DNA from: an uncultured Anaerolineaceae bacterium | GTDB lineage: Bacteria > Chloroflexota > Anaerolineae > Anaerolineales > Villigracilaceae | Reading direction: 5' to 3' | Length of the DNA: 64,000 nucleotides | NCBI GenBank assembly: GCA_964502095.1 | Contig: CAZCUF010000011.1 | Span: forward strand, 10,459 to 74,458 | Shown: positions 5,609-27,937 of the stretch, piece after piece | Layout: every line of letters starts with the position of its first letter | Position numbering within the stretch: position 1 is the first letter of the stretch | Made by a program: the position numbers and the translations under genes | Notes under the pieces: generated by a model | The model's database searches: none | What the model saw: the letters and a program-made list of their open reading frames with translations, nothing else | What the model was told of the DNA's origin: nothing

Positions 5609-8600
5609 TTATTTATTCATCCATGCCATCATGATTCCGTTTCTCCAGGGGACATTCCTTACATACATTTGCCTGTCGTCGTCGCTGTGGAAGCGGTTCA
5701 CTTGTTCCTGTAAAAGCTCATAGGCCTCGTCGAGGATTCGATTCGCCCTCGGATCGTTATTCGCCTGCAGAGCCTGATACACTGACCAGTAAATTCTGAT
5801 CGGCTCCTCGGTTCCATCCAGGTTGCCGCCTTGATTCAGATGCGAAAGAATCTCCTCGGCGTATTTCAAGGACAGTCCCGAATTTTTTTCCTCCAAAGCG
5901 GTTTGCGCCAGGCCTGCCAGGGGTTCCGTGGCCAGCGCGGCCTGCTTAAGCGTGCGGCGCAGGTTCAGCGCCTGTTCGTAAGAATGAGCGGATTCGATCA
6001 GATCGGGCAACAGGAAATGCGCGTGCCCGAGACAGGTCCATGCCCAGGCCTCGCCCGACGGATCGCCCATCTTGCGCATTAATTCCAGGCTTTTGTTTGC
6101 GTACGCGAGCGCGGCCGCTCTTTGGCTCTGAGCGACCGCGAGTCCGCTCAGGTTGATTAGCGTGTAAGCCTCGTTGTAAATGCTTCCAACTTCGCGCGCG
6201 ATGCGCAGGGCTTGCTTCTGATATGTTTGCGCGGAATCGAAGTCGCCCTGCATTCCCGCGACCCAGCCTAGATTCGCGAGCACCAATCCCTCCCCGGCCC
6301 GCGAGCCGGTTTCCCGCGCGATTGCCAGCGCCTGTTCATATCGTTCGCGCGCCGCGCTGTAATCCGATTCGACCGTTCCGGCCGCATTGCCGATATTGTT
6401 CAAAACGCGCGCCTCCAGCCGTTTGTCGCCGGCTTTGCGCGCAAAGAAGAGACTTTTTTCGAATGTAGAACGAGAAACGCGCGGCTCTTTCTGCTCCAGA
6501 TAGATCAGCCCAAGTGTATTCAAAATTTCCCCTTCCCGTTTTTCCTCCTCGAGAGATTGAGCCAGACCGATACCTGTTTCCGCTTCTTGAATCGCCGTAT
6601 CGATTTTTCCCAGGCGGCAGAGCGCCAGAGGCAGGGTTACGTAGGAATGCAATGCGATCCTCGGCGTATCGGCCAAACGCGAGAGCTGAATGACCCGCTG
6701 ACCGGCAATAACGCTCTGCTCGAGGTCGCCCGCTTCAAAAGCGAAAAGCTCGCGCTGAAGCGCGGCCTTTGCCCGGTTGGCGTCACTGTTTTGTGTTTCG
6801 GCGATCCGCTCGAGGCTCAGTAAATCCTCCTTCTTTTGATCCTGCCTGCCCAGGTAACCAAACAACGGCACGCGTGCCAGCAATAACTCGAATTTTATTT
6901 CGAGGTCATTAGTTGGCGTGAGTTCGATCGCTTTCGAGTAATTTTCAATGGCTTGGTTGTTTTGATAGGCTTCCGCGGCCAAATCGCCTGCCAGCCGATA
7001 ATAACTCCGCGCCTTCTCGATTAGCTCGGCTTGCTCGGCGTGATAAGCCAATTGACGGTAATACGGTTGAAGCTCGTTTCGATAAAGTTCTTCGAGCGCA
7101 TTCAGCGCGAGTCTGTGGAGTTCCTTTTGCCGCGACCGTAATTGCATGTTGTACGCGGCGTCTCTCATCAGGGCATGCCGGAAGATATATCGGATCTCGC
7201 TGATCGCCGCCCAAATATTTGCCTGTGCGCCCTGCTCGATCTTCGCCGGAAGGCGCGGGTCGCCGCGCAGCATGCGCGACAAAATTTGGACTTCGAATTC
7301 CCTGCCCAGAACCGAGGCGGTTTGGACCACGTCCCGCACTTCCTGTTTCAGACGGTCGAGACGCGCGATCAGAACTGAGCGAACGTCCGTTGGGAGCGAT
7401 TGAGATGGGTCGCCTGTAAGATGCCAGCGATCCTCCTCGAAGCGGACCAGGTTCTCCTCCAGCAGGTAGCGGACGACTTGTTCCACAAAGAATGGATTTC
7501 CCTCGGCGCGCTGATGAACGACATTCAAGAGTTCATCTTCGATCTCGCCGTGCAGAATTGCCCGCACCATTTCGTGCAGTTTGTTATCCGCGAGATCCTT
7601 CAAGCCGATCTCCAGATTCGGACAACCTTCCCTGAATTTCAAATTGGATTTTTTGCTTCTGCTGGTTGCGATGATCGCGATCGGGTAGGAATTATTTTGG
7701 CCGGGCAGGGCGATGCGCGAAAGATATTCGAGAAATGCAAGCGAATCTTCATCTGCCCAGTGCGTGTCTTCGATCAATAGGATAACCGGCCGCGAAAGGC
7801 TTTCTGCCTGCATCAAGGTGCTCAGTGCGATGAATGTATTTTCGTATCTTCCCTGGGCATCCAATTTTTCATAGAGCGAGTCCGGCCAATGGACGTTCAC
7901 CAGCGCGCCCAGAAAGGATTGAGTCCGCTCAAGGTCGTCGGCCAATGCCGATTCCGGGATGGACGCTATCAGTTCTCGAATTTTCGCCTGAAACCTGTTT
8001 CGATTGGTGTTCTCATCGTCTGTATACGAGATGCCGAAATATGTTTTCAGCCAGTATCGAAACGGATTGAGGGATTGCCGGATGATCTCGTCCGTTTGGC
8101 CGACCGCCCAAAGCACATCCGCATTTTGAAAAATCGAGGAGTTCCTGAATTGATGAATAAGCCTGCTTTTTCCGATTCCAGCTTCGCCCAACAGCGAGAG
8201 GGCGCCTGCAAATTGGCCTGTCCAAAGCGGCGCGATGAAATTCAGCAATTGTTTTAGCTCCGCCTCCCTCCCGAAAAACTCGCCGGGAAATACTTTTTCC
8301 CCGATATCTTCCTTGCGATTGATCAACTTCCAAACCTTGTGCGGTTGGGCGAATCCCTTGAAATTCTTATCGCCTTCAAAGGACAGGTTGAATTTATATT
8401 CGATACGGCGGGCAACCTCCTCGTGAAGCCATATTTCCCCCGCGCGCGCTGAAGACATCATGCGCGCGGCAAGGTTGATGCCCCAGCCGTAGCAAGTGTA
8501 GTCTTCGCGGAGAGAGCCGCCCATGAAACCGGAGAAGGAATTGAAGTAACTGACGCCGGCCCTTAATGGCATGCCCGTTTCTTTCATGAGGTCCAGGACA

Positions 8601-9523
8601 AAATTCAGCGCGCGCTCCACGTCGTTTTCCTGTATGACCGGCGCGCCCCAGAAGAGCAGTAAATTCAGGCCTTTATCTCCGTAGTCGGGCCGCGTTAACA
8701 AGCCGCCATATTGATCCTGTAACGTCAGGGCTTTTTGAAGCAGGGGAATAAAAGCCGCTTCACTCTGCGCCGACGGCGGTATGCCGATAAATAGATTGAC
8801 TGCAGGCCGGAACTCTCCGCCATGAACCTGTGAGATGATCTGATCCGGCCAGAACGGCTGAATTTGTTCCGGTGTTGGCGGACTGCCCGCCGCGGGATGA
8901 AACTCAGGCTTTTGGCTTCGAATCGATTTCAGCAGAAAGTGATTCCCTTTTTTGGCGGAGACGATGCGCTTCCCTAATTTTTCAGCGATGAGCTCGCCTG
9001 CGATGATTTCGCCCGCCTCCGCGCAATTGAACGATTGTACGCTTCGCTCGATGGCGGTGCCGTGAAAATAATAAACCGCCTTGCGTTTGTTTTCGGTCTC
9101 GACGATCCGCCAGCGGGATTCACCCAGTCCAAGCCCAATGCGTACCGAAATTTTGAAATCTCCATGCTCGGTCCTGAACAAATCGTGTCTCGATAACTTT
9201 TCCTGAATTTCGAGCGAGCAAGTCAATGCCTGAATCAGGGCTGGGCGCGAATCGCGGTCGGCGGGAAACAAGGCCGTAAACGAATCGCCTGCAAAGCCGA
9301 TCACGAACCCGCCGCGATTATGAACGCTTTCCACCATTGGGTCGAATACGGATTGCATCACCCAGGCCAGCGTTTCCGCTCCGTTCTGGCCGAATTGAGC
9401 CAGCACATCCGCCATTTTTGAAAAACCGGAAGCGTCCAGCAGTAAGGCAACCGAATGAAATCGCCCTTGTAGATTACCCACCGCGTAGTTGTCTAGAATG
9501 AAAGAAGGAACGAGACGACGCAT
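5609..9523 (-). CDS. Tandem class III adenylate/guanylate cyclase domains + AAA/STAND P-loop NTPase + long TPR array (1304 aa)
   Basis: Cyclase domain 1 (about aa 20-180: LLLDASGFS, GFAGDSF). Cyclase domain 2 (about aa 235-372: GDKGLNLLLFWGAP, GWGINLAARM). FFGREAEL...LLGEAGIGKSRL P-loop. The C-terminal about 550 aa are TPR-like repeats. Confidence 0.8.
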   Translation of the reverse strand: MRRLVPSFILDNYAVGNLQGRFHSVALLLDASGFSKMADVLAQFGQNGAETLAWVMQSVFDPMVESVHNRGGFVIGFAGDSFTALFPADRDSRPALIQALTCSLEIQEKLSRHDLFRTEHGDFKISVRIGLGLGESRWRIVETENKRKAVYYFHGTAIERSVQSFNCAEAGEIIAGELIAEKLGKRIVSAKKGNHFLLKSIRSQKPEFHPAAGSPPTPEQIQPFWPDQIISQVHGGEFRPAVNLFIGIPPSAQSEAAFIPLLQKALTLQDQYGGLLTRPDYGDKGLNLLLFWGAPVIQENDVERALNFVLDLMKETGMPLRAGVSYFNSFSGFMGGSLREDYTCYGWGINLAARMMSSARAGEIWLHEEVARRIEYKFNLSFEGDKNFKGFAQPHKVWKLINRKEDIGEKVFPGEFFGREAELKQLLNFIAPLWTGQFAGALSLLGEAGIGKSRLIHQFRNSSIFQNADVLWAVGQTDEIIRQSLNPFRYWLKTYFGISYTDDENTNRNRFQAKIRELIASIPESALADDLERTQSFLGALVNVHWPDSLYEKLDAQGRYENTFIALSTLMQAESLSRPVILLIEDTHWADEDSLAFLEYLSRIALPGQNNSYPIAIIATSRSKKSNLKFREGCPNLEIGLKDLADNKLHEMVRAILHGEIEDELLNVVHQRAEGNPFFVEQVVRYLLEENLVRFEEDRWHLTGDPSQSLPTDVRSVLIARLDRLKQEVRDVVQTASVLGREFEVQILSRMLRGDPRLPAKIEQGAQANIWAAISEIRYIFRHALMRDAAYNMQLRSRQKELHRLALNALEELYRNELQPYYRQLAYHAEQAELIEKARSYYRLAGDLAAEAYQNNQAIENYSKAIELTPTNDLEIKFELLLARVPLFGYLGRQDQKKEDLLSLERIAETQNSDANRAKAALQRELFAFEAGDLEQSVIAGQRVIQLSRLADTPRIALHSYVTLPLALCRLGKIDTAIQEAETGIGLAQSLEEEKREGEILNTLGLIYLEQKEPRVSRSTFEKSLFFARKAGDKRLEARVLNNIGNAAGTVESDYSAARERYEQALAIARETGSRAGEGLVLANLGWVAGMQGDFDSAQTYQKQALRIAREVGSIYNEAYTLINLSGLAVAQSQRAAALAYANKSLELMRKMGDPSGEAWAWTCLGHAHFLLPDLIESAHSYEQALNLRRTLKQAALATEPLAGLAQTALEEKNSGLSLKYAEEILSHLNQGGNLDGTEEPIRIYWSVYQALQANNDPRANRILDEAYELLQEQVNRFHSDDDRQMYVRNVPWRNGIMMAWMNK

Positions 9524-12416: not shown

Positions 12417-14837
12417 TTATGGCTGGCGGGCTTTATCGAGCAGGGACCTTCCAATTTGCCAGGCCAGCGTCAAATTATTTTCCTCGATCGCCACAACGAC
12501 AACCAGCGGCGTTCCCTGTAAATCTGGCGAAGTTCCGCCGATGTACCAGCTGATCGTTTCCGTATTCTCCGACGACCAGCTGACATATTCCCAATAGGAT
12601 TGTTTCGCGGCGATAAAAGACCGCGCCGCCTCATCCGCCGCCGACGGCTGGATCGCTTGAACCGGCTGATCCAACGCCGGTAGAATGACCCATCCCTGCT
12701 GAGGGGTTTTCACCGCCAACGCGATCCGTGAAGCGGGCACCAGACCGTGATTGCTCAGCGCCGCGGCCGCCAGCGCGGTCTGCAGAGGCGTTACGCGAAA
12801 ATCGCTTAAGTCTTTATTCTTTGCATCTGGCGCAACTGGCATGCGTATTTGCGGCGCACGGAATAGTCCGAGTTTTGAATAAAAAGTTTGCAAGTCCTTG
12901 TCGCTGGGTTTTTGCGCGCCAAACTCTGCCTGCGCCAACGGCTGTAATAGGTTCCCCGGCGGATACAAACCCTGCGCCGCGCGGTTGATCAAAGGCGCGC
13001 GGGGATCCTGTGCGAGTGCAGACCCCTGTTCCCTGAGTAGGTTGGGATCAAAGCCGGGATGGGAAGCCATGATGAACACTTCGCCGCTTTGCGCGTTGAG
13101 CAGAACGATTGCGCCGGTATGATTGCCCAGCAATTTGTCTGCGGTTGTTTGCAGGGACAAATCCAGACTCAAACGCACATCCAGGCCCGGCGGGGGAGTG
13201 CCGTAGAGCAGGTAATCCCACCAAAGCAAACTGGCCGGGTTGCCCTGCAGGCCGCGTAGATAGTTATCGAGGCTGGCTTCCAAACCAGCCTGTCCGAACA
13301 CGGGATCGGTGTAGCCGATGATTGGGCCCAAAGCCGGATACTCATATTGGCGCGTGTAACTGCCACTGGCGCCCACCGTTTTATCCAGGGGATTGTCTGC
13401 ACGGTCAATGATGTTGCCGCGCGGAACATAACGATCTGCAATGGCGCGGCGCGGATTGTCGGTTCGTTCCAGCAGATCGGGGCCGCGTATCACTGTCCAC
13501 CAAATTCCGCTGAGGGCGGCGGCCGCGAGTCCCAACCCCAGCAGAATGGAAAGCCCCATGAAAGGTTGAGCCGAGGCCAGAGGCGCGGGTTCTTCTTCTG
13601 TTTTAGCGCTGATCACAAGCAGAAGCCAGATAGCAATAAAGGCAGTTATCAACGATGAACCGCCATAGGAGACAAACGGCAGAGTCACTCCGGTGAGCGG
13701 AACCAGACGGAGGTTGCCGCCGATGATTACTAGACTCTGGACGCCGAGATATGCAGTCAACCCGGCGGCAAGGAATCGCCGGAAACGGTCGGGTGCGTTG
13801 AGCGCGGCGCGCAAGCCGCGGCTGATGAGCAGTCCAAGAACGGCGAGCAGGCCGATCATCCCGATAAGACCGGTTTCTTCCACGATCGCCGAGAAAATAA
13901 AATCGGAAATCGCGACCGGCACCAGCGTCGGGCTTCCCAAACCGGGGCCGCGTCCGATCACGCCGCCGTTGGCAATGGCGAGCAGGGATTGCACGATCTG
14001 ATAAGAACGTCCGCTGGGATCGTTCCAGGGACTCAACCAGGCGTTGACGCGAATCTGAATTACGCTGATAAAGAAATAGCCAACCAGCCCTGCCAGGGCC
14101 AGCGCTCCGCCTGTGAAAAGCAGGGTGCGGCGGCGCGCGGTGGCAATGTAAAGCACAAAGGTGAACAGGAGAATAAAAATGGAAGCGGTGCCGAGGTCCC
14201 GTTGAATCAACAAGATAAGAAGCGCGAGTCCAGTGACGAAGAGTGTCGGCAAAATCAGTGGAAAGATTTTTAGATGGATCGGTAAACGATCTGCAAGATA
14301 AGCGGAAAGAAAGACGATCAACAAAAGTTTCAACGGCTCCGACGGCTGGAAATAAACGCCACAACAACCGAGCCATAAACGCGGGCCATAGCCTTCGGGG
14401 TTTGTTCCGAAGATCAATGTCAGCGCGGTAAGAAGTAAACCGCTGGTGAGTAACAGGTATTTATAGCGGCGGAGAAATTCGATCTTGATGTGGAAGCGGA
14501 CGGCCAATATCAGAACGCCGAAGCTCAACCCGAGCCAGATCATTTGGCGCAGTCCGAAATTTGAATCGAGCCGCCAGATTGTCAGCAATCCCCAGCCGCT
14601 GAGCAGGGCGGCCACCGGCAAAATATAGGGATCGCGGTCAGAGAGATGCGCGGCAGTGATTCGGTTTGCCGCGGCGACGATGAGTATCCAGACCAAGAAA
14701 CCCAGCCAGTGCGACCAGCGATATGTGACCGCGAAACTCCTCTCGCGGACGGCGGGTGAGAGGGTGAGAATCAGCGAATATAAAAAAAGAAAACCTGCGG
14801 CCCAACGCAGCAGGCGGTTTTGAATCGCATCGGTCAT
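12417..14837 (-). CDS. Fusion protein: SEDS peptidoglycan polymerase (RodA/FtsW family) + class-B PBP-like module with a degenerate transpeptidase domain
   Basis: aa 1-410 carry the SEDS motifs (FQPSEPLKL, RDLGTA, GRGPGLG...VAISDFIFSAIVEETGLIG, LPFVSYGGSS). aa 425-450 form an extra TM. aa 450-806 are PBP2/PbpA-like (GAIVLLNAQSGEVFIMASHPGFDPN, VTPLQTALAAAALSNHG). The active-site positions read N-L-L-Q instead of S-x-x-K. Confidence 0.85.
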   Translation of the reverse strand: MTDAIQNRLLRWAAGFLFLYSLILTLSPAVRERSFAVTYRWSHWLGFLVWILIVAAANRITAAHLSDRDPYILPVAALLSGWGLLTIWRLDSNFGLRQMIWLGLSFGVLILAVRFHIKIEFLRRYKYLLLTSGLLLTALTLIFGTNPEGYGPRLWLGCCGVYFQPSEPLKLLLIVFLSAYLADRLPIHLKIFPLILPTLFVTGLALLILLIQRDLGTASIFILLFTFVLYIATARRRTLLFTGGALALAGLVGYFFISVIQIRVNAWLSPWNDPSGRSYQIVQSLLAIANGGVIGRGPGLGSPTLVPVAISDFIFSAIVEETGLIGMIGLLAVLGLLISRGLRAALNAPDRFRRFLAAGLTAYLGVQSLVIIGGNLRLVPLTGVTLPFVSYGGSSLITAFIAIWLLLVISAKTEEEPAPLASAQPFMGLSILLGLGLAAAALSGIWWTVIRGPDLLERTDNPRRAIADRYVPRGNIIDRADNPLDKTVGASGSYTRQYEYPALGPIIGYTDPVFGQAGLEASLDNYLRGLQGNPASLLWWDYLLYGTPPPGLDVRLSLDLSLQTTADKLLGNHTGAIVLLNAQSGEVFIMASHPGFDPNLLREQGSALAQDPRAPLINRAAQGLYPPGNLLQPLAQAEFGAQKPSDKDLQTFYSKLGLFRAPQIRMPVAPDAKNKDLSDFRVTPLQTALAAAALSNHGLVPASRIALAVKTPQQGWVILPALDQPVQAIQPSAADEAARSFIAAKQSYWEYVSWSSENTETISWYIGGTSPDLQGTPLVVVVAIEENNLTLAWQIGRSLLDKARQP

Positions 14838-14846: not shown

Positions 14847-15713
14847 TTACTTCAAGTACTTCTTTACAAGCAAATCGAGCTTTTGGCGCGTGGCAGGCGG
14901 AATCGCATCCGGCTGTGTGATGAGCGCGTTGGCCAGGGCAGATTCACAGTCGCATTTTCTTTCAGAGTCCAAATCTCGCGCCAGCGCCCGAACTGCTTCC
15001 TGCGCCAAAGCTGTATTTTTGTTCAAGGTTTGAATCACCAGTTCAACCGTCACCGGGGACTCGGTGGTATGCCAGACATCGTAGTCTGTTACGTGCGCCA
15101 TAACCGCGTAACACATTTCCGCCTCGCACGCTAGAAATGCTTCAGGAGAGGTGGTCATTCCGATCAGCGACATGCCCCAGGCACGATAGGCGTTCGACTC
15201 GGCTTTGGTCGAGAAGCGCGGGCCTTCGATGGTGATAAAGGCGCCGCCGTGATGAGTCGTTGCGCCAGCCGCGCGTACCGCGCGTTCCAATTGCGCCGAA
15301 AGATCGCCGCAAAACGGCTCAGCTACACTGATATGCGCGACCAAGCCCTCGCTGAAGAATGTGCGTGCGCGGTCTTTGGTGAAATCAAAGAGTTGATCGG
15401 GGATCGCAATGTGCCCAGGCGCATAATCCTCGCGCAAAGAACCGCAGGCGCTGATGCTGACGATTCTTTCGACCCCCAGCGATTTCAACGCGTAAATGTT
15501 GGCGCGATAATTTATCTCGGAGGGCGAAATGTGATGACCGATCCCATGCCGCGCCAGAAAGGCCACTGTTCTGCCTTCCAGCTTTCCCACAATGACGGGC
15601 GCGCTGGGCTTTCCGAAAGGCGTAGCGATCGCGCGTTCCTGCGTATCTCGCAGGCCGGGCATGGCGTACAACCCTGAACCGCCGATTACAGCAAATGATA
15701 TTTTTTCCGGCAT
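14847..15713 (-). CDS. mtnP: S-methyl-5'-thioadenosine phosphorylase (PNP/MTAP family)
   Basis: FAVIGGSGLY, ARHG..H.ISPSEINYRANIYALK, and EGPRFSTKAES...MTTSPE motifs. Confidence 0.85.
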   Translation of the reverse strand: MPEKISFAVIGGSGLYAMPGLRDTQERAIATPFGKPSAPVIVGKLEGRTVAFLARHGIGHHISPSEINYRANIYALKSLGVERIVSISACGSLREDYAPGHIAIPDQLFDFTKDRARTFFSEGLVAHISVAEPFCGDLSAQLERAVRAAGATTHHGGAFITIEGPRFSTKAESNAYRAWGMSLIGMTTSPEAFLACEAEMCYAVMAHVTDYDVWHTTESPVTVELVIQTLNKNTALAQEAVRALARDLDSERKCDCESALANALITQPDAIPPATRQKLDLLVKKYLK

Positions 15714-15728: not shown

Positions 15729-16166
15729 TCAGGCAGGTTCTATGGTTCGGACAACGATACGCGTGGAGCCTAAAACAATCTCGTCGCCGGTTGTCAACAC
15801 AATCGGCTGGGCAACGGTCTCCTGATTTAAGCGCGTGCCGTTTGTAGAGTTCAGATCCTCCAGCCACCATTGCCCGTGATGAAAAATCAAACGCGCGTGG
15901 CGCGCTGAGACGGTTTCATCGGCGACGGATATATCGCAGATCGGGTCCCGTCCAAGCATAATCTCCGGCTGAATAAAATGTTTAACGCCGCCGGCTTCCT
16001 CGCTCCCAGCTTGAACGGTGAGGTTGATGCCGGGAATTCGGCGTGAAGCCACCCCCGCCGCCTGACGATGCACATCCTGCCATAATGTGTATAACGCCCA
16101 GCCCAGAAATCCATACAAGGCGAACGCCAGCAGGAGGCGCAGGACCAGGACAATCGATCCGCTCAT
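15729..16166 (-). CDS. FhaB/FipA-like protein: N-terminal TM helix + FHA domain
   Basis: 145 aa. TM helix IVLVLRLLLAFALYGFLGWALYTLW. FHA signature LGRDP..DISV.D..VSARHARL......WWLEDLNSTNGTRLN. ATGA overlap with the upstream gene. Confidence 0.75.
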   Translation of the reverse strand: MSGSIVLVLRLLLAFALYGFLGWALYTLWQDVHRQAAGVASRRIPGINLTVQAGSEEAGGVKHFIQPEIMLGRDPICDISVADETVSARHARLIFHHGQWWLEDLNSTNGTRLNQETVAQPIVLTTGDEIVLGSTRIVVRTIEPA

Positions 16167-17005
16167 TTATTGTTGTTGTTTTTGAGTTTGGCGGTGGAAT
16201 GATCTTTTAAGATCGCGGTCGGCCTGTCGGAGGTGGCAGGCTGGAAGGGCGCGGTATCCAGCAGGTCCGGGCGTTGAGGCGGGTTGTCCTGCCCGAAGAT
16301 GAGGGCTACTCCGGCCAGTGAAATCACGTCGCCCGGATACAGCACGGATTGGCTGGCGCGCTGTCCATTGACGAACGTGCCGCCGGTCGAATTTAGATCG
16401 AACAGCACAAAGCGCCCGTTGATGGCGCGCAATTGTGCGTGATTGCGGGAGATGCGCGGGTCGTCGATCACCAGCTGATTATCCATGCGGCGGCCGATGT
16501 TGACCACCGAATCTTTGAGCGGGAACACTTTGACGCCCTCGATGATCAGAAACGCGTTTTCGGGAATCCGATCGTCCTCGTTGGTTTCGGCGTTTTCGTT
16601 TGGCATGCCTTTTGTCTCGGCCATAGGATCTACCCGATGTGATGCCACTACATTGACATCCTTGAGTGAAAGAGATTTGTCGGTTGAAATGCTGATGACT
16701 GGCTTGGATATGAACTTATAACCTGCTTCCTGCCCGGCGTCGGTGAGCGCCTCGATTAAAATGTCCAACAGTCCCGGCTTTTGCCAATAGTTGACGGCTT
16801 CCGGATGCACGATCACGGTATATACATTGGGCGCCAGAGCGGCGCCGTCTTCCTGCGTGACCAGATTGGCATGCATCGCTCCGGCCAGGTTTCGAATGGC
16901 TACTTCCTCCACGCTTTGGCTGGGCAGGGCGTTTAGCAGTCGGACCTCCACCAGGTTTTGCAAACGGGCTTCCAAGTCATTTAGGTTCATACTTGCTGAA
17001 GGCAT
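16163..17005 (-). CDS. FhaA-like protein: DUF3662-type N-terminal domain + C-terminal FHA domain
   Basis: N-terminus LEARLQNLVE...APNVYTVIVHPE...EAGYKF resembles the FhaA N-domain. C-terminal FHA signature (IGRRMDNQLVIDDPRISRNHAQL...LFDLNSTGGTFVNG). The start is uncertain: ATG 17005 or 16990. The ORF-track start at 17155 overlaps the upstream gene. Confidence 0.7.
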   Translation of the reverse strand: MPSASMNLNDLEARLQNLVEVRLLNALPSQSVEEVAIRNLAGAMHANLVTQEDGAALAPNVYTVIVHPEAVNYWQKPGLLDILIEALTDAGQEAGYKFISKPVISISTDKSLSLKDVNVVASHRVDPMAETKGMPNENAETNEDDRIPENAFLIIEGVKVFPLKDSVVNIGRRMDNQLVIDDPRISRNHAQLRAINGRFVLFDLNSTGGTFVNGQRASQSVLYPGDVISLAGVALIFGQDNPPQRPDLLDTAPFQPATSDRPTAILKDHSTAKLKNNNNK

Positions 17006-17076
17006 TATAGAGGGGAGGGGGGGATTCTGCAAGTCATTTTTCCCGGCCACTTTGCCTATTTGAAAACAATCCCCGC

Positions 17077-17685
17077 TTAAGGCGGGGATCGATGAAAGAC
17101 TGGCTTTCCGCAATTCGGACAATTCGCTTCCCCCCGCTTTAGCACAAACCCGCAATTAGGGCAGGTCGTTGGCTGTGCGCTTCCCAGGGGCGCGCCGCAG
17201 GCGATGCAGGCGGGTTCGCCTATCGGATTGGCGGTTCCGCAGTATTCACAAGTTATGCGACTCAGTCTCTCAGAGAGTTGTTTCGAAGCGCCCAGCGTGC
17301 GCGCGCATTCGTTGATCACGCGCCAGATGTTCTCGCTTAACTGGATGTTTTGGATATCCTGCGCAATATCGTCCAGGCGGGTCAATAAATTCAGCGGGTT
17401 GCGCAGCGCCCACAATGCCGTCGTCCCCAAACTGGCGGCTACACCGAGCCAGGCTTGCTGGCCAAGCTCGACCATCAGCCCATCTGCCACCTTGCGGATG
17501 CTGACCGTGAGCGCGGTCTCGCCGCCCGAGCTTACGCCCGGCCGCGACCCAATCTGCACCACCATCATTGTGTTGTCGCTTTGGCTTAAAGCTTGCGCGC
17601 GCAAATTTCCGCGATTGAATTCGGCCATAAGGGCCTGCGCTATATCATTGGGAGTCAGCGAGCCATGGAAAATTCTTCGTTCCAT
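17077..17685 (-). CDS. Hypothetical protein with C-terminal double zinc ribbon
   Basis: 202 aa. CEYCG...CIACG...CPNCG...CPNCG gives four CxxC pairs. The N-terminal about 140 aa match no family I recognise. It is the first gene of the FHA/SEDS-direction gene string. Confidence 0.55.
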   Translation of the reverse strand: MERRIFHGSLTPNDIAQALMAEFNRGNLRAQALSQSDNTMMVVQIGSRPGVSSGGETALTVSIRKVADGLMVELGQQAWLGVAASLGTTALWALRNPLNLLTRLDDIAQDIQNIQLSENIWRVINECARTLGASKQLSERLSRITCEYCGTANPIGEPACIACGAPLGSAQPTTCPNCGFVLKRGEANCPNCGKPVFHRSPP

Positions 17686-17735: not shown

Positions 17736-18338
17736 ATGAATGGATTCCGGTTTCAATTCCCTGTTTTGACAATTGGCCTTTCGGTTGTTATCGGCCTGGT
17801 TTTTCTCGTTCATCATCCGACCGAGGTGCTGGCTCAGGGACCCGCGACGGCGACCCCCGCATCGGCTGGCGGCGTATTCATCACGGTTACATATGCCGAT
17901 GAGCCATTTGTGAACGTCCGCAGTGGGCCAAGCACTTTATATGACATTATTGGCCAGTTGGCCGCTGGAGATACGGCCCCAGCCTTGGGCGTTTCTCCCG
18001 GACATGAATGGATTCAGATTTCGTTCAACGGCGGTATAGGGTGGGTTTATAGCGCCTTTGTCGCGGTTTCGCCAGGCGCATTACAAATCGTCGAGCCGCC
18101 GCCAACCGCAACGCCTCTGGCCAGCCCGACTCTTGATCCCACGCTCGCCGCGGCATTTAATGCCGCGCCTACGGCTACCCGCCTGCCAACTTTTACGCCG
18201 CCGCCGCCTCTTGTCGTCCCGAGTTTTACTCAAAGCTCCTCGGCTTCGGATGGCAGTTTTTCACTGGGCTGGGTGATTATCGGCATCGGTCTGGTCGGCG
18301 TTATTGGATTTTTACTCTCGTTTCTTCGCCGCTCGTGA
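17736..18338 (+). CDS. Surface protein: signal/TM + SH3b-like domain + Pro/Thr linker + C-terminal TM with basic tail
   Basis: VNVRSGPSTLYDIIGQL..GD...ALG......WIQI....GIGWVY matches the SH3_3 pattern. PT-rich segment. The protein ends GWVIIGIGLVGVIGFLLSFLRRS. Confidence 0.6.
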   Translation: MNGFRFQFPVLTIGLSVVIGLVFLVHHPTEVLAQGPATATPASAGGVFITVTYADEPFVNVRSGPSTLYDIIGQLAAGDTAPALGVSPGHEWIQISFNGGIGWVYSAFVAVSPGALQIVEPPPTATPLASPTLDPTLAAAFNAAPTATRLPTFTPPPPLVVPSFTQSSSASDGSFSLGWVIIGIGLVGVIGFLLSFLRRS

Positions 18339-18970
18339 TGTTTAAAGTCCAGCTTTCTGCCCGATTTCGATTCATGGCGCACTTGCTCATCGCGGCCGGC
18401 ATCATGGCAGTCGCTTTTCTGATGCCGGGTGGGATTCCGGTTTCGGCGCAACAGCCCACCGGTTCCGTGCCGACCGTGACGGGGACTCCCTCAGGGCCGC
18501 TGGTAAAAGTCTATCAGGATTTGGGGCAGATCATCGTGTATGCGGGGCCCAGTTCCTTTGATTATCCGGCAATCGGACTTTTGCTTCTGAATCAGCAGGC
18601 TCCGGCTCTAGGACGATCTCCGGACGGGAGCTGGATTCAAATCTACTATCCGGGTGTGCCGGGTTCAGTTGGGTGGATTTACGCGCCGTATGTTTCCATC
18701 ACGGCAGTTCCTTCCTTGCCCGTCCTCGATATACCATCTACGCCGACACCGTTATCGACTCCGACCATTGACCCTACGTTGGCCGCAGCCTACATTACAA
18801 CAGATCAGCCTCAACGTCTTGCCACTTTTACTCCGCCCGCTCCGCTTGTGGTACCAACCTTTGTGGATGAGACCCCCGCGCCGAGCAGTATTCCTATCGG
18901 TTTGTTGATTTTCGGCTTTGGCTTTGTGGGCGTATTGGGCGCGTTGATTTCCTTCCTGCGAGGCAGGTGA
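18335..18970 (+). CDS. Paralogue of the preceding SH3b-like surface protein
   Basis: Same architecture. A conserved block PTPLSTPTIDPTLAAAY...LATFTPPAPLVVPTF corresponds to ATPLASPTLDPTLAAAF...LPTFTPPPPLVVPSF in the neighbour. ATGA start/stop overlap. Confidence 0.6.
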   Translation: MMFKVQLSARFRFMAHLLIAAGIMAVAFLMPGGIPVSAQQPTGSVPTVTGTPSGPLVKVYQDLGQIIVYAGPSSFDYPAIGLLLLNQQAPALGRSPDGSWIQIYYPGVPGSVGWIYAPYVSITAVPSLPVLDIPSTPTPLSTPTIDPTLAAAYITTDQPQRLATFTPPAPLVVPTFVDETPAPSSIPIGLLIFGFGFVGVLGALISFLRGR

Positions 18971-18979
18971 TCTTAAATC

Positions 18980-19006
18980 AAAAAAGCCGGTTTGTCCGGC
19001 TTTTTT
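18980..19006. terminator. Bidirectional hairpin terminator
   Basis: AAAAAAGCCGG / CCGGCTTTTTT stem with a TTTGT loop, between convergent genes. Confidence 0.75.
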
Positions 19007-19024
19007 GATTCTTATCTGTTTTGT

Positions 19025-19405
19025 TCAGCTATTGCAAGAACAGGAACCGCCGCAGGCACAGCCGCCTTCGCCATGTTCGTGTTCATGCTGGGCGGCGATG
19101 GGGCTGTCCACCAGGAAGCCCGCGCCCTGCACCGGGTCGTTGACGAAATCAACGGTGGCGCCGCGTAAGTAATCGATCGAGGTGTTATCGACCACAACCT
19201 TTACGCCATCGGAGTTGAATGTGAGATCGGTGGAATTGAAGGTATTATCGAGCGCCATGCCGAAGTTCACGCCACAACATCCTCCGCCAGCCACGTACAC
19301 GCGCAAAGCATATCCTTCCAGGTTGCGCTGTGCGAAAATATCCTTTACAGCTTTGGCGGCGGCATCGGTTAGAGTGATCGTTTGTACGTCGATTTCTGTG
19401 AGCAT
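19025..19405 (-). CDS. A-type Fe-S cluster carrier (IscA/ErpA/HesB family) with a His/Cys-rich C-terminal tail
   Basis: ITLTDAAAKAVKDI...LRVYVAGGGCCG.NFGMALD...VDFV motifs. The tail reads HEHEHGEGGCACGGSCSCNS. Confidence 0.8.
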   Translation of the reverse strand: MLTEIDVQTITLTDAAAKAVKDIFAQRNLEGYALRVYVAGGGCCGVNFGMALDNTFNSTDLTFNSDGVKVVVDNTSIDYLRGATVDFVNDPVQGAGFLVDSPIAAQHEHEHGEGGCACGGSCSCNS

Positions 19406-19509
19406 GATACTCTCCTCGTGGATGAATATGACGCATAATATCAGAATTATGGGTGGTTGTCAACGACAGCGAAGGCGGCAGGTACAGGCCCGGTCTTTCA
19501 ATACTTTGC

Positions 19510-19538
19510 TTGACACATTGCAAACGCGCCTGTAAAAT
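19510..19538 (+). promoter_or_regulatory. Near-consensus sigma70 promoter upstream of hppA (TTGACA-17-TAAAAT)
   Basis: TTGACA 19510-19515, a 17-nt spacer, TAAAAT 19533-19538. It is about 60 nt before ATG 19599. Confidence 0.55.
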
Positions 19539-19598
19539 CGCCCTGCTCGTTTCGGCGCGCGGCGCGCCTTATACTTTGTTCGGGAGGAAACCCCTTTT

Positions 19599-21941
19599 AT
19601 GTTCACCATGGGACTCACCGCTTTTGAATCGACTGCGATCTGGGCTGTACTTGGCATTGCCATCCTCGGCCTGGCATACGCAGTCTTTTTGCGTTCCCAG
19701 ATTTTACGCGAGGATAAGGGAACCGCAAAAATGCAGGAAGTGTGGGGCGCGATTCGAGATGGAGCCAACGCTTATCTCGTTCGCCAACTCCGTTCGATCC
19801 TGCCTTTGATCGGCATCCTGACCATTGCCTTGTTTTTCTCCGTTTATATTGTTCCCCCCAGCGCGGAAGCCCTGGAACGATTCCCCGGCCAGGCTCCTGA
19901 GCAAGTGCGCCTGATCATCGGCTTTGCGCGTGCCATCGCGTTCGTGATGGGCGCTTCATTTTCTCTGGCTGTCGGTCAAATTGGAATGCGCATGGCCGTC
20001 GAGGGAAATGTGCGCGTGGCCTCCGCCTCGCGCAGGTCCTTCGGTGACGCCCTGCGCATCGCGTACCGCGCCGGAACGATCACCGGTATGCTGACCGATG
20101 GCCTCGGCCTGTTGGGCGGCACTTTGATTTTCATTGTTCTCGGCATCGCCGCGCCGGATGCTTTATTGGGTTTCGGTTTTGGCGGCACGTTGTTGGCGCT
20201 GTTCATGCGTGTGGGCGGCGGCATTTTCACCAAGGCGGCTGACGTCGGCGCAGATTTAGTCGGTAAAGTGGAAGCAGGCATCCCTGAGGATGATCCGAGA
20301 AATCCGGCAGTGGTGGCTGATTTGGTCGGCGATAACGTCGGCGACTGCGCGGGAATGGCCGCAGATATTTTTGAATCCTATGAAGTGACCATTGTGGCCG
20401 GTTTGATTTTAGGCCTGGCTTTACATGCCTTCACCGGCCGCCTTGAATGGATTATCTTCCCATTGATCGTGCGCGGCGTGGGCGTGCTGTCTTCGATTGT
20501 TGGAACGTATCTGGTGCGCGGCGGCCCGGGAAAGAGCGGCAACGCGATGAAAGCCATTTTCCGCGGCTTCCTTTCCTCTGCGGTGATTTCAGCCGTGCTC
20601 TTTTTTGGCGCTGGTTTTCTGTATTTGAACAATCCGGGAATGAGTCAGTTCGGCGGCTGGTGGCGCGTTCCGGTGACAGTGGCCGTTGGGGTTCTGTTGG
20701 CAATTTTGATCGACCGTCTGACTGAATACTTCACCGGCACCGACCAATCTCCGGTTCGAGACATCAAGAAGGCGGCGGATACCGGCCCGGCTACGCTGAT
20801 TCTGCAGGGCGTCGCGGCCGGCTTCGAGTCCTCGGTCTGGTCTGTGATTGTCATCGCGCTGACGATTGTCGCGTCTATTTTCGTCATGGGTACGATTCCG
20901 GGAGTGGATGCCGCACAGCGCATTAACTTTATTTTATACGGCGTGGCGATGACGGGCATCGGCATGTTGACCCTGACGGGCAACAATGTGGCGATGGACT
21001 CATTCGGCCCCATTTCGGACAACGCGAACGGCATCGGCGAAATGTCCTGGCACGGAATGGAAGATAAAGAGACGCGCGATGCCCAACAGATCATGGCCGA
21101 TCTCGACGCGGTGGGCAACACTACCAAGGCAATTACCAAGGGTGTTGCGATTGGTTCGGCGGTCATTGCGGCGGTGGCGCTCTTTGGCTCCTTCCTGGTG
21201 GACGTGAGCCGGGCGCAGGCTAGTTTGGGTGTTGCGGTGACGGAACAGATCAAGACCATGGGCATCCGTGTTGACGTGCCGCAGGTGTTCGTCGGCATGT
21301 TGATCGGCGGCGCCCTGCCGTGGCTGTTCTCTTCGTTTGCAATTCAAGCGGTTTCCCGCGCGGCTTCGTTGATCGTGCTGGAAGTCCGTCGTCAGTTCAA
21401 GCTCGGCGTGCTGGAAGGCAAAGTAGCGCCCGATTACAAACAAGCAGTCGGCATTTCGACTACGGCGGCGCAAAAGGAACTCGCTTCCCTGGCTTTGCTC
21501 GGCATCGTGACGCCGATTGTGGTCGGCCTACTTTTACAGGTTGAAGCGCTGGGAGGCTTCTTGGCGGGCATCATTGTCTCAGGTCAACTACTGGCGGTAT
21601 TCCTGAACAACTCGGGCGGCGCCTGGGATAATGCCAAGAAGTTGATCGAGGATGAGCCCCGCAAGCCCGCCGAGAATTTAGGGAAAGGCTCTGAACGCCA
21701 TAAGGCCGGCGTTGTGGGCGATACGGTCGGCGATCCGTTCAAGGATACGGCTGGCCCCGCTCTGAATCCGATGATTAAAGTGGTAAACCTGGTCTCGGTC
21801 ATCATTGCCCCGATCGTTGTGCAATATGCCAGAGCCGAAGGGATGACCCAAGTTGTCATTTGGATCGTCGCATTGCTCCTGATCGCGGTGCTTGGCTGGG
21901 CAATCGTCCGCTCGAAAGCACCGGCGCAAGCGATGAAGTAA
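19599..21941 (+). CDS. hppA: Membrane-integral H+-translocating pyrophosphatase, K+-independent subtype
   Basis: 780 aa, polytopic. GGGIFTKAADVGADLVGKVE, DNVGDCAGMAADIFESY and GDTVGDPFKDTAGPALN motifs. GNTTKAITKG carries Lys at the position that specifies K+ independence. Confidence 0.9.
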   Translation: MFTMGLTAFESTAIWAVLGIAILGLAYAVFLRSQILREDKGTAKMQEVWGAIRDGANAYLVRQLRSILPLIGILTIALFFSVYIVPPSAEALERFPGQAPEQVRLIIGFARAIAFVMGASFSLAVGQIGMRMAVEGNVRVASASRRSFGDALRIAYRAGTITGMLTDGLGLLGGTLIFIVLGIAAPDALLGFGFGGTLLALFMRVGGGIFTKAADVGADLVGKVEAGIPEDDPRNPAVVADLVGDNVGDCAGMAADIFESYEVTIVAGLILGLALHAFTGRLEWIIFPLIVRGVGVLSSIVGTYLVRGGPGKSGNAMKAIFRGFLSSAVISAVLFFGAGFLYLNNPGMSQFGGWWRVPVTVAVGVLLAILIDRLTEYFTGTDQSPVRDIKKAADTGPATLILQGVAAGFESSVWSVIVIALTIVASIFVMGTIPGVDAAQRINFILYGVAMTGIGMLTLTGNNVAMDSFGPISDNANGIGEMSWHGMEDKETRDAQQIMADLDAVGNTTKAITKGVAIGSAVIAAVALFGSFLVDVSRAQASLGVAVTEQIKTMGIRVDVPQVFVGMLIGGALPWLFSSFAIQAVSRAASLIVLEVRRQFKLGVLEGKVAPDYKQAVGISTTAAQKELASLALLGIVTPIVVGLLLQVEALGGFLAGIIVSGQLLAVFLNNSGGAWDNAKKLIEDEPRKPAENLGKGSERHKAGVVGDTVGDPFKDTAGPALNPMIKVVNLVSVIIAPIVVQYARAEGMTQVVIWIVALLLIAVLGWAIVRSKAPAQAMK

Positions 21942-25781: not shown

Positions 25782-25785
25782 TGCT

Positions 25786-26775: not shown

Positions 26776-26785
26776 TCAAACGGTT

Positions 26786-27895: not shown

Positions 27896-27937
27896 ATAAT
27901 CGTCGAGAATCAGGCCATGGAAAAACCTGACCGTTGG

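What the first reader, a model, noticed from the sequence alone, without database searches (positions are those of the whole stretch)
12417..14837. Natural SEDS-bPBP fusion in which the transpeptidase module has lost all three catalytic motifs
A single 806-aa ORF joins two modules.

**SEDS polymerase, apparently intact.** It carries FQPSEPLKL, RDLGTA, VAISDFIFSAIVEETGLIG with the conserved Asp, and LPFVSYGGSS. This is followed by an extra TM helix and a PbpA/PBP2-like pedestal and transpeptidase fold.

**Degenerate transpeptidase.** At the position where bPBPs read Y-x-P-G-S-x-x-K, the sequence is YPPGNLLQ (AAC CTA TTA CAG at 12942-12953, minus strand). The stretch that should hold the SxN motif is only about 18 aa long. 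The region before the W-[FY]-x-G strand reads YVSWSSENTE instead of xGKTGTA.

**Interpretation.** It is established that bPBPs allosterically activate their SEDS partner through the pedestal. I infer that the fused module has been kept as a built-in regulatory or scaffolding pseudo-enzyme, and that cross-linking is delegated to another PBP or an L,D-transpeptidase.
Basis: partly seen in the sequence, partly recalled or inferred. Interest (0 to 1): 0.7.

Follow-up and report, generated by a model that had tools for sequence, protein, structure and literature searches.

The report
SEDS polymerase fused to dead transpeptidase
This gene joins an intact cell-wall glycan polymerase to a penicillin-binding-protein module that keeps its fold but has lost every catalytic residue, and the same arrangement is conserved under purifying selection across many Anaerolineales (Chloroflexota) genomes, so it is a natural case of a transpeptidase kept for a non-catalytic job.

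Summary
The ORF at 12417-14837 (minus strand, 806 aa) is one polypeptide. It has a SEDS glycosyltransferase with all its hallmark motifs, one linker TM helix, a PbpA-type pedestal and a transpeptidase (TP)-fold domain.

- **Lost motifs.** SxxK is replaced by NLLQ and KTGTA by YVSWS. The segment that should carry SxN is missing; it is about 75 aa shorter than in PbpA.
- **Not an artefact.** The identical protein occurs on at least 6 contigs. 77 species-level genomes carry an intact gene of about 806 aa in the same locus (zinc-ribbon gene, fhaA, fhaB, usually an MTAP-like gene, then the fusion).
- **A family trait.** None of 241 family sequences has SxxK. Longer orthologues of 860-900 aa keep the SxN region but have also lost all three motifs, so catalytic death came before the deletion.
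- **Selection.** dN/dS is about 0.07 for SEDS and pedestal and 0.14 for the TP remnant. The former catalytic positions are among the more variable columns, while the scaffold residues around them are invariant.
- **Closest relatives.** The nearest solved structures are PbpA-type TP domains from Coriobacteriia and M. tuberculosis, which are active and bind beta-lactams.

The most likely role is a built-in activator or scaffold for the polymerase, with cross-linking done by another enzyme. That role is inferred, and I could not check which enzyme does the cross-linking. I rate it a new variant of a known kind, with moderately high interest.

The parts
12417..14837 (-). Whole ORF, 806 aa plus stop: SEDS glycosyltransferase, linker TM helix, PbpA-type pedestal and catalytically dead transpeptidase-fold domain
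   Evidence: ORF list; Pfam and NCBIfam; identical protein P0121 on at least 6 contigs
13593..14837 (-). SEDS (FtsW/RodA/SpoVE) domain, aa 1-415. The canonical core starts at about aa 68, preceded by two extra N-terminal helices (aa 2-32 and 42-64)
   Evidence: PF01098 E 1.4e-72; phmmer to T. thermophilus RodA 6bar E 2e-32 and E. coli RodA 8tj3_B, aligned from query aa 68; AF2 helices; motifs invariant in the family
13902..13904 (-). D312, aligned with the Asp of T. thermophilus RodA that is replaced by Ala in PDB 6bas. From memory this is the essential catalytic Asp (D255)
   Evidence: Alignment ...vpvaisDFiFS... to ...ipfrhtDFvFS..., with D to A in the 6bas variant; D312 present in 158 of 158 family sequences that cover it
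13488..13568 (-). Linker transmembrane helix, aa 424-450. It corresponds to the N-terminal membrane anchor of a bPBP and takes the chain from the cytoplasmic SEDS C-terminus to the outside
   Evidence: AF2 helix H424-450, pLDDT 86-93; hydrophobic sequence
13122..13427 (-). PbpA-type pedestal (non-penicillin-binding module), aa 471-572
   Evidence: PF21922 at aa 473-533; aligned with the pedestals of 4mnr, 4jbf, Mtb PbpA and PBP2; 71% mean pairwise identity and dN/dS 0.070
12420..13121 (-). Transpeptidase-fold pseudo-domain, aa 573-806
   Evidence: PF00905 matches only profile positions 1-43 of 299; AF2 pLDDT mostly 81-96 from aa 621; Foldseek best hits are PbpA-type TP domains, probability 1.0, TM 0.5-0.6
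12942..12953 (-). N629-L-L-Q632 in place of the S-x-x-K motif (nucleophile Ser replaced by Asn, general-base Lys by Gln)
   Evidence: Codons AAC CTA TTA CAG; aligned with STIK and STFK of PBP2 and 4mnr; 0 of 241 family sequences have SxxK
12789..12920 (-). Shortened connector, aa 640-683, that replaces the helical subdomain carrying SxN. It is about 75 aa shorter than in PbpA
   Evidence: The spacing from the SxxK position to the (S/T)PLQ helix is 47-54 aa here and about 128 aa in 4mnr and PBP2. Long-form orthologues have 105-117 aa there
12573..12587 (-). Y751-V-S-W-S755 in place of K-T-G-T-A on strand beta3
   Evidence: Translation; profile alignment to 4mnr KTGTA; family consensus HVGQA and no K[ST]G[TS] in any representative
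14847..15713 (-). Upstream gene, 9 bp before the fusion: PNP_UDP_1 phosphorylase, read as MTAP-like. It is present between fhaB and the fusion in 62 of 80 related loci
   Evidence: Pfam PF01048; synteny
15729..16166 (-). FhaB-like protein containing an FHA domain
   Evidence: PF00498; conserved in 72 of 80 loci
16163..17155 (-). FhaA-like protein (FhaA_N plus FHA). The true start is probably downstream of the listed TTG
   Evidence: PF12401 and PF00498; conserved in 70 of 80 loci
17077..17685 (-). Double zinc-ribbon protein, first gene of the conserved same-strand run
   Evidence: PF12773, PF13248 and PF13240; conserved in 65 of 80 loci

Best explanation
The gene encodes a single-chain peptidoglycan polymerase.

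**Architecture (shown).**
- An intact SEDS glycosyltransferase is joined through one transmembrane helix to a PbpA-type pedestal and a transpeptidase-fold domain.
- That domain lacks SxxK, SxN and KTG, so it cannot work by the penicillin-binding-protein acyl-enzyme mechanism.

**Evolutionary identity (shown).**
- It is the Anaerolineales version of a rodA-pbpA pair that sits behind fhaA and fhaB, as in Actinobacteria.
- The two genes became fused, the catalytic residues were lost, and in this lineage the SxN subdomain was later deleted.

**Function (inferred).**
- The pedestal plus the dead TP domain are kept as a built-in activator and scaffold of the SEDS polymerase.
- This matches the way bPBP pedestals activate RodA and FtsW in other bacteria.
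- The glycan strands it makes would then be cross-linked by another enzyme, such as a class A PBP, another class B PBP docking on it, or an L,D-transpeptidase.
- The FHA proteins in the operon suggest control by Ser/Thr phosphorylation.
For: **Shown**
- The domain architecture is established.
- The motifs are replaced at homologous positions.
- SEDS motifs are invariant while no family member has SxxK or KTG.
- Long-form orthologues in the same FhaA-FhaB-MTAP context read YQPGGALA for YPPGSTFK and GCA for SCN. Catalytic loss therefore preceded the deletion.
- Purifying selection acts on every module: dN/dS 0.068 SEDS, 0.070 pedestal, 0.061 TP N-part, 0.136 TP remnant.
- The pedestal is as conserved as the SEDS domain.
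- Former catalytic columns lie at the 65th-86th percentile of variability in the TP domain. The flanking scaffold residues Y625, G628, P633, W764 and G768 are invariant or nearly so.
- The TP fold is predicted with high confidence and matches PbpA-type structures.
- At least 80 species-level genomes conserve the gene and its synteny.

**Established knowledge**
- bPBPs allosterically activate their SEDS partner.
- Catalytically dead PBP2b in B. subtilis and SpoVD(S311A) in C. difficile still support their SEDS partner while another enzyme cross-links (PMC12713402).

**Supporting context**
- A related genome encodes a second, stand-alone SEDS gene after minCDE. The fusion is therefore not the only polymerase.
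Against: - No biochemical data exist for any member.
- The activating function of the pedestal is transferred from distant systems.
- The model confidence for the pedestal is only moderate, pLDDT 47-84.
- The cross-linking partner is unidentified. No PBP or L,D-transpeptidase gene is in the window or in the flanks of 80 related loci.
- Phosphatase and Ser/Thr kinase genes, which accompany fhaA-fhaB-rodA-pbpA in Actinobacteria, were not found among the genes flanking the fusion in the window. A RIO-type kinase gene lies about 34 kb away at 48809-49870.
- The TP remnant is still strongly constrained. This could mean a specific binding function beyond simple scaffolding.
- The SEDS subtype is unresolved. 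NCBIfam scores are FtsW 253 and RodA 209 bits, both below their cutoffs.
Confidence: 0.6

Rival explanations
1. The dead TP domain has acquired a specific new function rather than acting as a generic activator or scaffold. It could be a non-covalent peptidoglycan or stem-peptide binding 'reader', or a dedicated docking platform for a cross-linking enzyme that acts on it from outside.
For: - The TP remnant is under clear purifying selection, dN/dS 0.136.
- Several Trp, Gly and Pro residues are invariant: W716, W749, W764, G715, G768.
- W749 and W716 have no counterpart in the canonical motif alignment.
- bPBP-bPBP interactions are reported where a dead bPBP is complemented by a second one (PMC12713402; PMC12516126).
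Against: - Most of the invariant residues coincide with the fold-determining motifs of ordinary bPBPs: (S/T)PLQ, xNxG, WFxG, and the E of the last strand.
- The former active-site positions are variable, not re-fixed to a new constellation.
- No partner gene is conserved next to it, apart from the FHA proteins and SH3_3 proteins.
- This rival overlaps with the main explanation and is not exclusive of it.
Confidence: 0.25
2. The domain is still a transpeptidase that uses a non-canonical catalytic set, for example Thr as nucleophile, since Thr is the commonest family residue at the Ser position.
For: Thr occupies the Ser position in 139 of 241 family sequences, and Ser in 33.
Against: - In this protein the residue is Asn.
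- The Lys position is L, Q, E or T. Lys occurs in only 6 of 241 sequences and never together with Ser.
- KTG reads HVGQA or YVSWS.
- The SxN region is deleted here and reads GCA in a long-form orthologue.
- All these positions vary freely.
Confidence: 0.03
3. The ORF is an artefact, either a frameshift or assembly join of two genes, or a decaying pseudogene.
For: - Some database relatives appear as separate short 'PBP-only' proteins on long contigs (P0050, P0085).
- The TP domain is truncated relative to canonical enzymes.
Against: - Those short proteins come from long-read assemblies in which many genes, including the SEDS part and tRNA synthetases, are split by frameshifts.
- The identical 806-aa protein occurs on at least 6 contigs.
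- 77 species genomes carry an intact ORF of about 806 aa, each covered by a single continuous tblastn match.
- dN/dS is 0.06-0.14 throughout.
Confidence: 0.01

Closest known systems
Coriobacteriia PbpA-type proteins annotated 'peptidoglycan glycosyltransferase' (Eggerthella lenta PDB 4mnr; Atopobium parvulum 4jbf, 4n1x, 4qjg, 4r0q, 4r1g, 4r23, 4r3j, 4ra7)
   Same: - They are the best sequence and structure matches to the C-terminal half: hmmsearch E 1e-29, Foldseek probability 1.0, TM about 0.5-0.6.
- They share the PbpA-type pedestal.
- Fragmentary relatives 64-73% identical to 4mnr carry a SEDS domain (PF01098) in the same polypeptide.
- A 931-aa Coriobacteriales protein with the same three-domain order has been published (PMC12516126).
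   Different: - They keep STFK, SSN and KTGT.
- They were crystallised as complexes with penicillins and cephalosporins.
- Published fusions average about 950 aa, against 806 aa here.
- I did not retrieve the full-length parents of 4mnr or 4jbf, so their fused state rests on related fragments.
Mycobacterium tuberculosis RodA and PbpA (PDB 3un7, 3lo7) in the fhaA-fhaB-pstP-rodA-pbpA-pknA-pknB cluster
   Same: - The pedestal and TP fold are PbpA-type.
- The gene sits directly downstream of an FhaA_N+FHA gene and an FHA-only gene.
   Different: - The Mtb proteins are two separate polypeptides.
- Mtb PbpA has an active TP that forms acyl-enzymes with beta-lactams.
- The phosphatase and kinase genes of the actinobacterial cluster (order known from memory) are not adjacent here.
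- An MTAP-like gene is usually inserted instead.
'Bifunctional class B' SEDS-bPBP fusion proteins catalogued by domain architecture (Microlife 2025, PMC12516126)
   Same: They have the same architecture: GTase, then pedestal, then TPase, in one polypeptide.
   Different: - That survey treats the fusions as putative bifunctional synthases.
- In the text I could read, it does not report loss of the catalytic motifs. Its supplementary tables were not available.
- Here the TPase module is dead across the whole family.
Engineered catalytically inactive bPBPs: B. subtilis PBP2b active-site mutant and C. difficile SpoVD(S311A)
   Same: A bPBP without transpeptidase activity still supports its SEDS partner, while another enzyme supplies the cross-links (PMC12713402).
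   Different: - Those are laboratory point mutants of separate proteins with the rest of the active site intact.
- Here the loss is natural and old, involves all three motifs plus a deletion, and the protein is covalently fused to its SEDS.
T. thermophilus RodA-PBP2 (6pl5) and E. coli RodA-PBP2 (8tj3) complexes
   Same: - Both halves are homologous: RodA E 2e-32 and PBP2 about 1e-14.
- These complexes are the structural basis for the idea that the pedestal activates the SEDS.
   Different: - They are non-covalent two-protein complexes with an active TP.
- Their pedestal is the canonical PF03717 type, not the PbpA type.

Membership tests
SEDS glycosyltransferases (FtsW/RodA/SpoVE, PF01098) | Significant match to the family model over its whole length | tested here: met
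   PF01098 245 bits against a cutoff of 26.4, profile positions 37-354 of 356; RodA 6bar E 2e-32
SEDS glycosyltransferases (FtsW/RodA/SpoVE, PF01098) | Conserved extracytoplasmic catalytic residues, including the essential Asp (from memory, T. thermophilus RodA D255) | tested here: met
   D312 aligns with the Asp that is Ala in the 6bas variant. QPSEP, RDLG, D312, E320/E321 and PFVSYGGSS are invariant in the family
SEDS glycosyltransferases (FtsW/RodA/SpoVE, PF01098) | Lipid II polymerase activity | not testable with these tools
   This needs biochemistry
SEDS subtype RodA versus FtsW (NCBIfam equivalogs) | Score above the equivalog cutoff of TIGR02210 (RodA) or TIGR02614 (FtsW) | tested here: not met
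   FtsW 252.9 bits against a cutoff of 337.5; RodA 209.4 bits against 336.7. The subtype stays unresolved
Class B penicillin-binding proteins | Membrane anchor followed by a pedestal (non-penicillin-binding) module | tested here: met
   TM helix at aa 424-450; PF21922 29.8 bits against a cutoff of 27; pedestal aligns with 4mnr, PbpA and PBP2
Class B penicillin-binding proteins | Transpeptidase (penicilloyl-serine transferase) fold | tested here: met
   Foldseek probability 1.0 to PbpA, PBP2 and PBP3 structures, TMq 0.54-0.60 for the C-terminal model. The fold is truncated, because the helical subdomain is missing
Class B penicillin-binding proteins | S-x-x-K motif with nucleophilic Ser and Lys | tested here: not met
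   N629-L-L-Q632 at the aligned position; 0 of 241 family sequences have SxxK
Class B penicillin-binding proteins | S-x-N motif | tested here: not met
   The region is deleted here, with a 50-aa connector instead of about 125 aa. It reads GCA in place of SCN in a long-form orthologue
Class B penicillin-binding proteins | K-T/S-G motif on strand beta3 | tested here: not met
   Y751-V-S aligned with K-T-G of 4mnr; no K[ST]G[TS] in 149 representatives
Class B penicillin-binding proteins | Covalent binding of beta-lactams | not testable with these tools
   This needs Bocillin-FL labelling. The sequence predicts that none occurs
Natural SEDS-bPBP fusions ('bifunctional bPBPs', PMC12516126) | GTase, pedestal and TPase domains in one polypeptide | tested here: met
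   A single ORF is found in 77 genomes
Natural SEDS-bPBP fusions ('bifunctional bPBPs', PMC12516126) | Both catalytic modules competent (bifunctional) | tested here: not met
   The TP motifs are absent
Actinobacterial-type fhaA-fhaB-pstP-rodA-pbpA-pknA-pknB cell-wall cluster | FhaA (FhaA_N+FHA) and FhaB (FHA) genes directly upstream of the SEDS and PbpA genes | tested here: met
   (70-72 of 80 loci) and for a long-form orthologue
Actinobacterial-type fhaA-fhaB-pstP-rodA-pbpA-pknA-pknB cell-wall cluster | Adjacent PP2C phosphatase and PASTA Ser/Thr kinase genes | tested here: not met
   The neighbours are an MTAP-like gene, a ferredoxin, SOD and SH3_3 proteins. No PP2C or Pkinase hit appears among the flanking genes

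The most novel reading that the evidence does not exclude
A whole order of filamentous Chloroflexota may run one of its SEDS wall-synthesis machines permanently uncoupled from D,D-transpeptidation. On this reading the fused, dead PbpA module has become a non-catalytic regulator or 'reader' of the wall, controlled through FhaA and FhaB. The strands it makes would be cross-linked by an unrelated enzyme class such as L,D-transpeptidases, or would follow an unusual cross-linking pattern. That machine would be intrinsically insensitive to beta-lactams.
Probability: 0.2. Interest if true: 0.8.

Novelty: new variant of a known kind. Interest (0 to 1): 0.62.

Why it matters
**Background.** SEDS polymerases are thought to need a class B PBP both as an allosteric activator and as the cross-linking enzyme. 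The two roles have only been separated with laboratory point mutants.

**What this family adds.**
- It is a natural, ancient and widespread separation of the two roles. It occurs in at least 80 species-level genomes and gives 734 clusters (at 50% identity) with E <= 1e-30.
- The activator and scaffold part is kept under strong selection and is even welded to the polymerase. The chemistry has been discarded and part of the domain deleted.

**What it offers.**
- It gives independent evolutionary support for an essential non-catalytic role of bPBPs.
- It defines a naturally minimised activator module for structural and biochemical work.
- It predicts a SEDS machine with no beta-lactam target.
- It raises a concrete question: which enzyme cross-links the wall in Anaerolineales, a group abundant in activated sludge and sediments?
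- It warns against annotating such proteins as 'bifunctional' from domain hits alone.

Tried and rejected
- **Artefact or frameshift join: rejected.** Intact ORFs occur in 77 genomes and the identical protein occurs on at least 6 contigs. Apparent stand-alone 'PBP-only' relatives (P0050, P0085) come from long-read assemblies with many frameshift-split genes.
- **Decaying pseudogene: rejected** by dN/dS of 0.06-0.14.
- **Motifs displaced elsewhere in the domain: rejected.** Profile alignment to 4mnr and PbpA places every motif position, and there is no K[ST]G[TS] anywhere in 149 representatives.
- **A partner PBP or L,D-transpeptidase nearby: none found.** I ran Pfam on 40 window ORFs, the ZnR-FhaA-FhaB-MTAP run among them. 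I also searched all ORFs of the window plus 83 fetched loci (1.39 Mb in all) with the family profile.
- **Catalytically intact fused relatives inside Chloroflexota: none found.** The best 150 representatives are all motif-less, apart from one 255-aa fragment with SLIK and no KTG. More distant hits are not listed by the tool.
- **Confirming that 4mnr and 4jbf come from fused proteins: only partly done.** The search returned only fragments. Three of them (64-73% identity) contain PF01098, so the support is partial.
- **Prior descriptions: none found.** Five literature searches found no description of naturally motif-less SEDS-fused bPBPs. The supplementary tables of PMC12516126 were not available.
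- **Active-site geometry: not inspected.** The model coordinates could not be read, so no cleft or surface analysis was done.


Full report
**1. What is at the coordinates.**

The window holds one ORF at 12417..14837 on the minus strand, with an ATG start and 806 aa.
- Pfam finds a full SEDS domain, FTSW_RODA_SPOVE, at aa 94-413 (E 1.4e-72).
- It also finds the PbpA-type pedestal PBP_dimer_2 at aa 473-533, scoring 29.8 bits against a cutoff of 27.
- The Transpeptidase model PF00905 matches only profile positions 1-43 of 299, at aa 575-628.
- NCBIfam gives FtsW 253 bits and RodA 209 bits, both below the equivalog cutoffs, so the SEDS subtype is unresolved.
- Against solved structures, the N-terminal half matches T. 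thermophilus RodA (E 2e-32) and E. coli RodA. The C-terminal half matches PBP2, PbpA and FtsI only up to about aa 640-657.

An AlphaFold2 model built from 64 family sequences has mean pLDDT 80.
- It shows the SEDS helices and two extra N-terminal helices at aa 2-32 and 42-64.
- It shows a linker TM helix at aa 424-450 and a moderately confident pedestal.
- It shows a confidently predicted alpha/beta domain, with pLDDT mostly 81-96 from aa 621 to the end.

The topology is consistent. The cytoplasmic C-terminus of a SEDS protein leads into the membrane anchor of a bPBP, which carries the chain to the outside.

**2. The three motifs.**
- **SxxK.** phmmer aligns YPPGNLLQP with YPPGSTIKP of PBP2. 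The family profile aligns the same site with YAPGSTFK of E. lenta 4mnr. The codons at 12942-12953 are AAC CTA TTA CAG, so Ser is replaced by Asn629 and Lys by Gln632.
- **KTG.** The profile alignment places K-T-G-T-A of 4mnr opposite Y751-V-S-W-S755, with the following WFVG strand opposite W764-Y-I-G.
- **SxN.** The distance from the SxxK position to the conserved (S/T)PLQ helix is 47-54 aa here and about 128 aa in 4mnr and PBP2. About 75 aa, including the SxN-bearing helices, are absent.

**3. Not an artefact.**
- The identical protein (P0121) lies on at least 6 contigs from different assemblies.
- More than 120 full-length orthologues of 803-818 aa, at 60-84% identity, were returned.
- A scan of species-representative genomes with a C-terminal family alignment found 520 stretches that encode a relative. 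The best 80 are all at 54-75% identity and almost all labelled Anaerolineales or Chloroflexota, including Candidatus Villigracilis.
- In 77 of those 80 loci I recovered one uninterrupted ORF of about 806 aa.
- Short 'unfused' database entries (P0050, P0085) are fragments from long-read assemblies in which many genes are split by frameshifts.

**4. A family trait, and an old one.**
- In 241 aligned family sequences the SEDS motifs are invariant. These are QPSEP, RDLG, D312, E320/E321 and PFVSYGGSS.
- None of the 241 has SxxK. The Ser column reads T139/S33/N24/D17. The Lys column reads L91/Q33/E29/T26, with Lys in only 6 sequences and never together with Ser. The KTGTA position has the consensus HVGQA.
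- A profile search of 1.84 billion cluster representatives gave 734 proteins at E <= 1e-30. Many of the best 150 are fused proteins of 860-900 aa.
- These long forms keep 105-117 aa between the SxxK helix and the SPLQ helix. Only one fragment among 146 scorable representatives has SxxK, and none of the 149 has K[ST]G[TS].
- One long form aligned to Mtb PbpA reads YQPGGALA for YPPGSTFK and GCA for SCN.
- Another long form sits in the same FhaA-FhaB-PNP_UDP_1 context and is therefore an orthologue.

The likely order of events is fusion, then loss of the catalytic residues, then deletion of the SxN subdomain in the lineage of this window.

**5. Selection.**

Figures come from the 77 genes (identity) and from 25 close pairs analysed by Nei-Gojobori (median dN/dS).

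| Module | Mean pairwise identity | Median dN/dS |
|---|---|---|
| SEDS | 71% | 0.068 |
| Pedestal | 71% | 0.070 |
| TP N-part | 64% | 0.061 |
| TP remnant | 50% | 0.136 |

- The dead domain is therefore being maintained.
- Within it, the former catalytic columns are at the 65th-86th percentile of variability.
- The flanking scaffold residues Y625, G628, P633, W764, G768, P684, Q686, G698 and E785 are invariant or nearly so.
- Chemistry released and fold retained is the signature of a pseudo-enzyme.

**6. Structure.**
- Foldseek with the full-length model and with the C-terminal model gives the same best hits. These are the PbpA-type domains of Atopobium parvulum (4jbf and its beta-lactam complexes), Eggerthella lenta (4mnr) and M. 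tuberculosis PbpA. Probability is 1.0 and TM is about 0.5-0.6.
- 4mnr carries STFK, SSN and KTGT.
- Fragmentary relatives 64-73% identical to 4mnr include a SEDS domain in the same polypeptide.
- A 931-aa Coriobacteriales protein with the same three domains has been published (PMC12516126).
- The nearest characterised relatives are therefore active PbpA-type modules that bind beta-lactams. At least some of them are likewise fused to a SEDS.

**7. Context.**
- On the same strand, upstream of the fusion, lie a double zinc-ribbon protein, an FhaA-like protein (FhaA_N plus FHA), an FHA-only FhaB-like protein and a PNP_UDP_1 phosphorylase that I read as MTAP-like. The gaps are 9-15 bp or the genes overlap.
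- This order is conserved in 62-72 of 80 loci. In some loci fhaB directly precedes the fusion.
- It resembles the actinobacterial fhaA-fhaB-pstP-rodA-pbpA-pknA-pknB cluster, whose gene order I know from memory. No PP2C phosphatase or Ser/Thr kinase gene is adjacent here.
- No other PBP or YkuD gene occurs in the window or in 1.39 Mb of related loci.
- One related genome has a second, stand-alone SEDS gene after minC-minD-minE, 6 kb away. The fusion is therefore not the only polymerase.

**8. Mechanism.**
- **Shown:** an apparently competent SEDS polymerase is covalently tethered to a conserved pedestal and a transpeptidase-fold domain without catalytic residues.
- **Established elsewhere:** bPBPs allosterically activate their SEDS partner. 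Catalytically dead PBP2b and SpoVD still support it while another enzyme cross-links (PMC12713402).
- **Inferred:** the pedestal and dead TP module serve as a built-in activator and scaffold. Cross-linking is done by another enzyme. FhaA and FhaB link the machine to Ser/Thr phosphorylation.
- I give this 0.6.
- The main rival is a more specific acquired function of the TP remnant, such as peptidoglycan binding or docking of a cross-linking enzyme. It is compatible with the data and not exclusive of the main reading (0.25).
- Non-canonical catalysis (0.03) and artefact or pseudogene (0.01) are very unlikely.

**9. Novelty.**
- SEDS-bPBP fusions are already catalogued as putative 'bifunctional' synthases (PMC12516126).
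- Dead bPBPs that still work are known as laboratory mutants.
- I found no description of a natural, family-wide, motif-less bPBP module fused to a SEDS. Absence from the searchable library is not proof.
- I rate it a new variant of a known kind, with interest 0.62.

**10. Limits.**
- There is no biochemistry.
- The cross-linking partner is unknown.
- Model coordinates could not be inspected.
- The count of 520 genome hits may include ordinary PbpA-type genes, so I rely only on the 80 inspected loci.

Noticed in passing
window 14646-14837 (aa 1-64 of the ORF): The SEDS part has about 65 extra N-terminal residues that form two predicted helices before the canonical SEDS core, which starts at about aa 68 when aligned with E. 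coli RodA residue 16. The extension is conserved across the family consensus. Its role is unknown.
   Followed up: partly
window 17736-18338 and 18335-18970 (+): Two tandem small proteins have a hydrophobic N-terminus, a bacterial SH3_3 domain, a Pro/Thr-rich linker and a hydrophobic C-terminus. They are transcribed divergently from the ZnR-fhaA-fhaB run and are conserved there in 64 of 80 related loci. They may be wall-binding partners of the module.
   Followed up: partly
window 14847-15713 (-): A PNP_UDP_1 (MTAP-like) phosphorylase gene sits between fhaB and the fusion in 62 of 80 loci and is absent in others, for example L034, L048, L050, L056 and L058. It is an odd metabolic insert in a cell-wall operon.
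   Followed up: partly
L086 17188-18208 (-), next to minC/minD/minE at 18304-20053: A second, stand-alone SEDS gene (split by an assembly frameshift) lies directly after minCDE, about 6 kb from the fusion, in a related Anaerolineales genome. These genomes therefore encode at least two SEDS polymerases.
   Followed up: partly
L084, L085/L086 (contigs behind P0050 and P0085): Long-read metagenome assemblies split this gene and its neighbours, including tRNA synthetases, into several short ORFs through frameshifts. This creates false 'stand-alone pseudo-PBP' entries in protein databases.
   Followed up: yes
L010, L035, L044 (record titles): Some MAGs that carry this typical Anaerolineales locus are labelled Herpetosiphon sp., delta proteobacterium or Lewinellaceae. 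Likewise P0005, P0070 and P0081 are labelled Bacteroidota, Syntrophothermus and Flavisolibacter. These are probably binning or labelling errors.
   Followed up: no
window 24000-28000: G+C drops to 0.45-0.46, against about 0.55 elsewhere. The region contains two family-2 glycosyltransferases (25786-26775 and 27938-29125) plus a 735-aa ORF (23574-25781) and a 369-aa ORF (26786-27895) with no Pfam match. It may be an acquired polysaccharide cluster.
   Followed up: no
window 5609-9523 (-), 43455-45833 (+), 61090-63018 (+): Three large STAND-type NTPases with TPR repeats are present. The first also has an adenylate/guanylate cyclase domain, and the third is of the NB-ARC type.
   Followed up: no
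window 48809-49870 (+): A RIO1-type kinase domain protein is encoded here. It is the only kinase-like gene seen in the window and is not adjacent to the FHA genes.
   Followed up: no
window 38001-39068 (+): A secreted CAP-domain protein with a LysM (peptidoglycan-binding) domain is encoded here. It is the only other wall-related domain noticed in the window.
   Followed up: no
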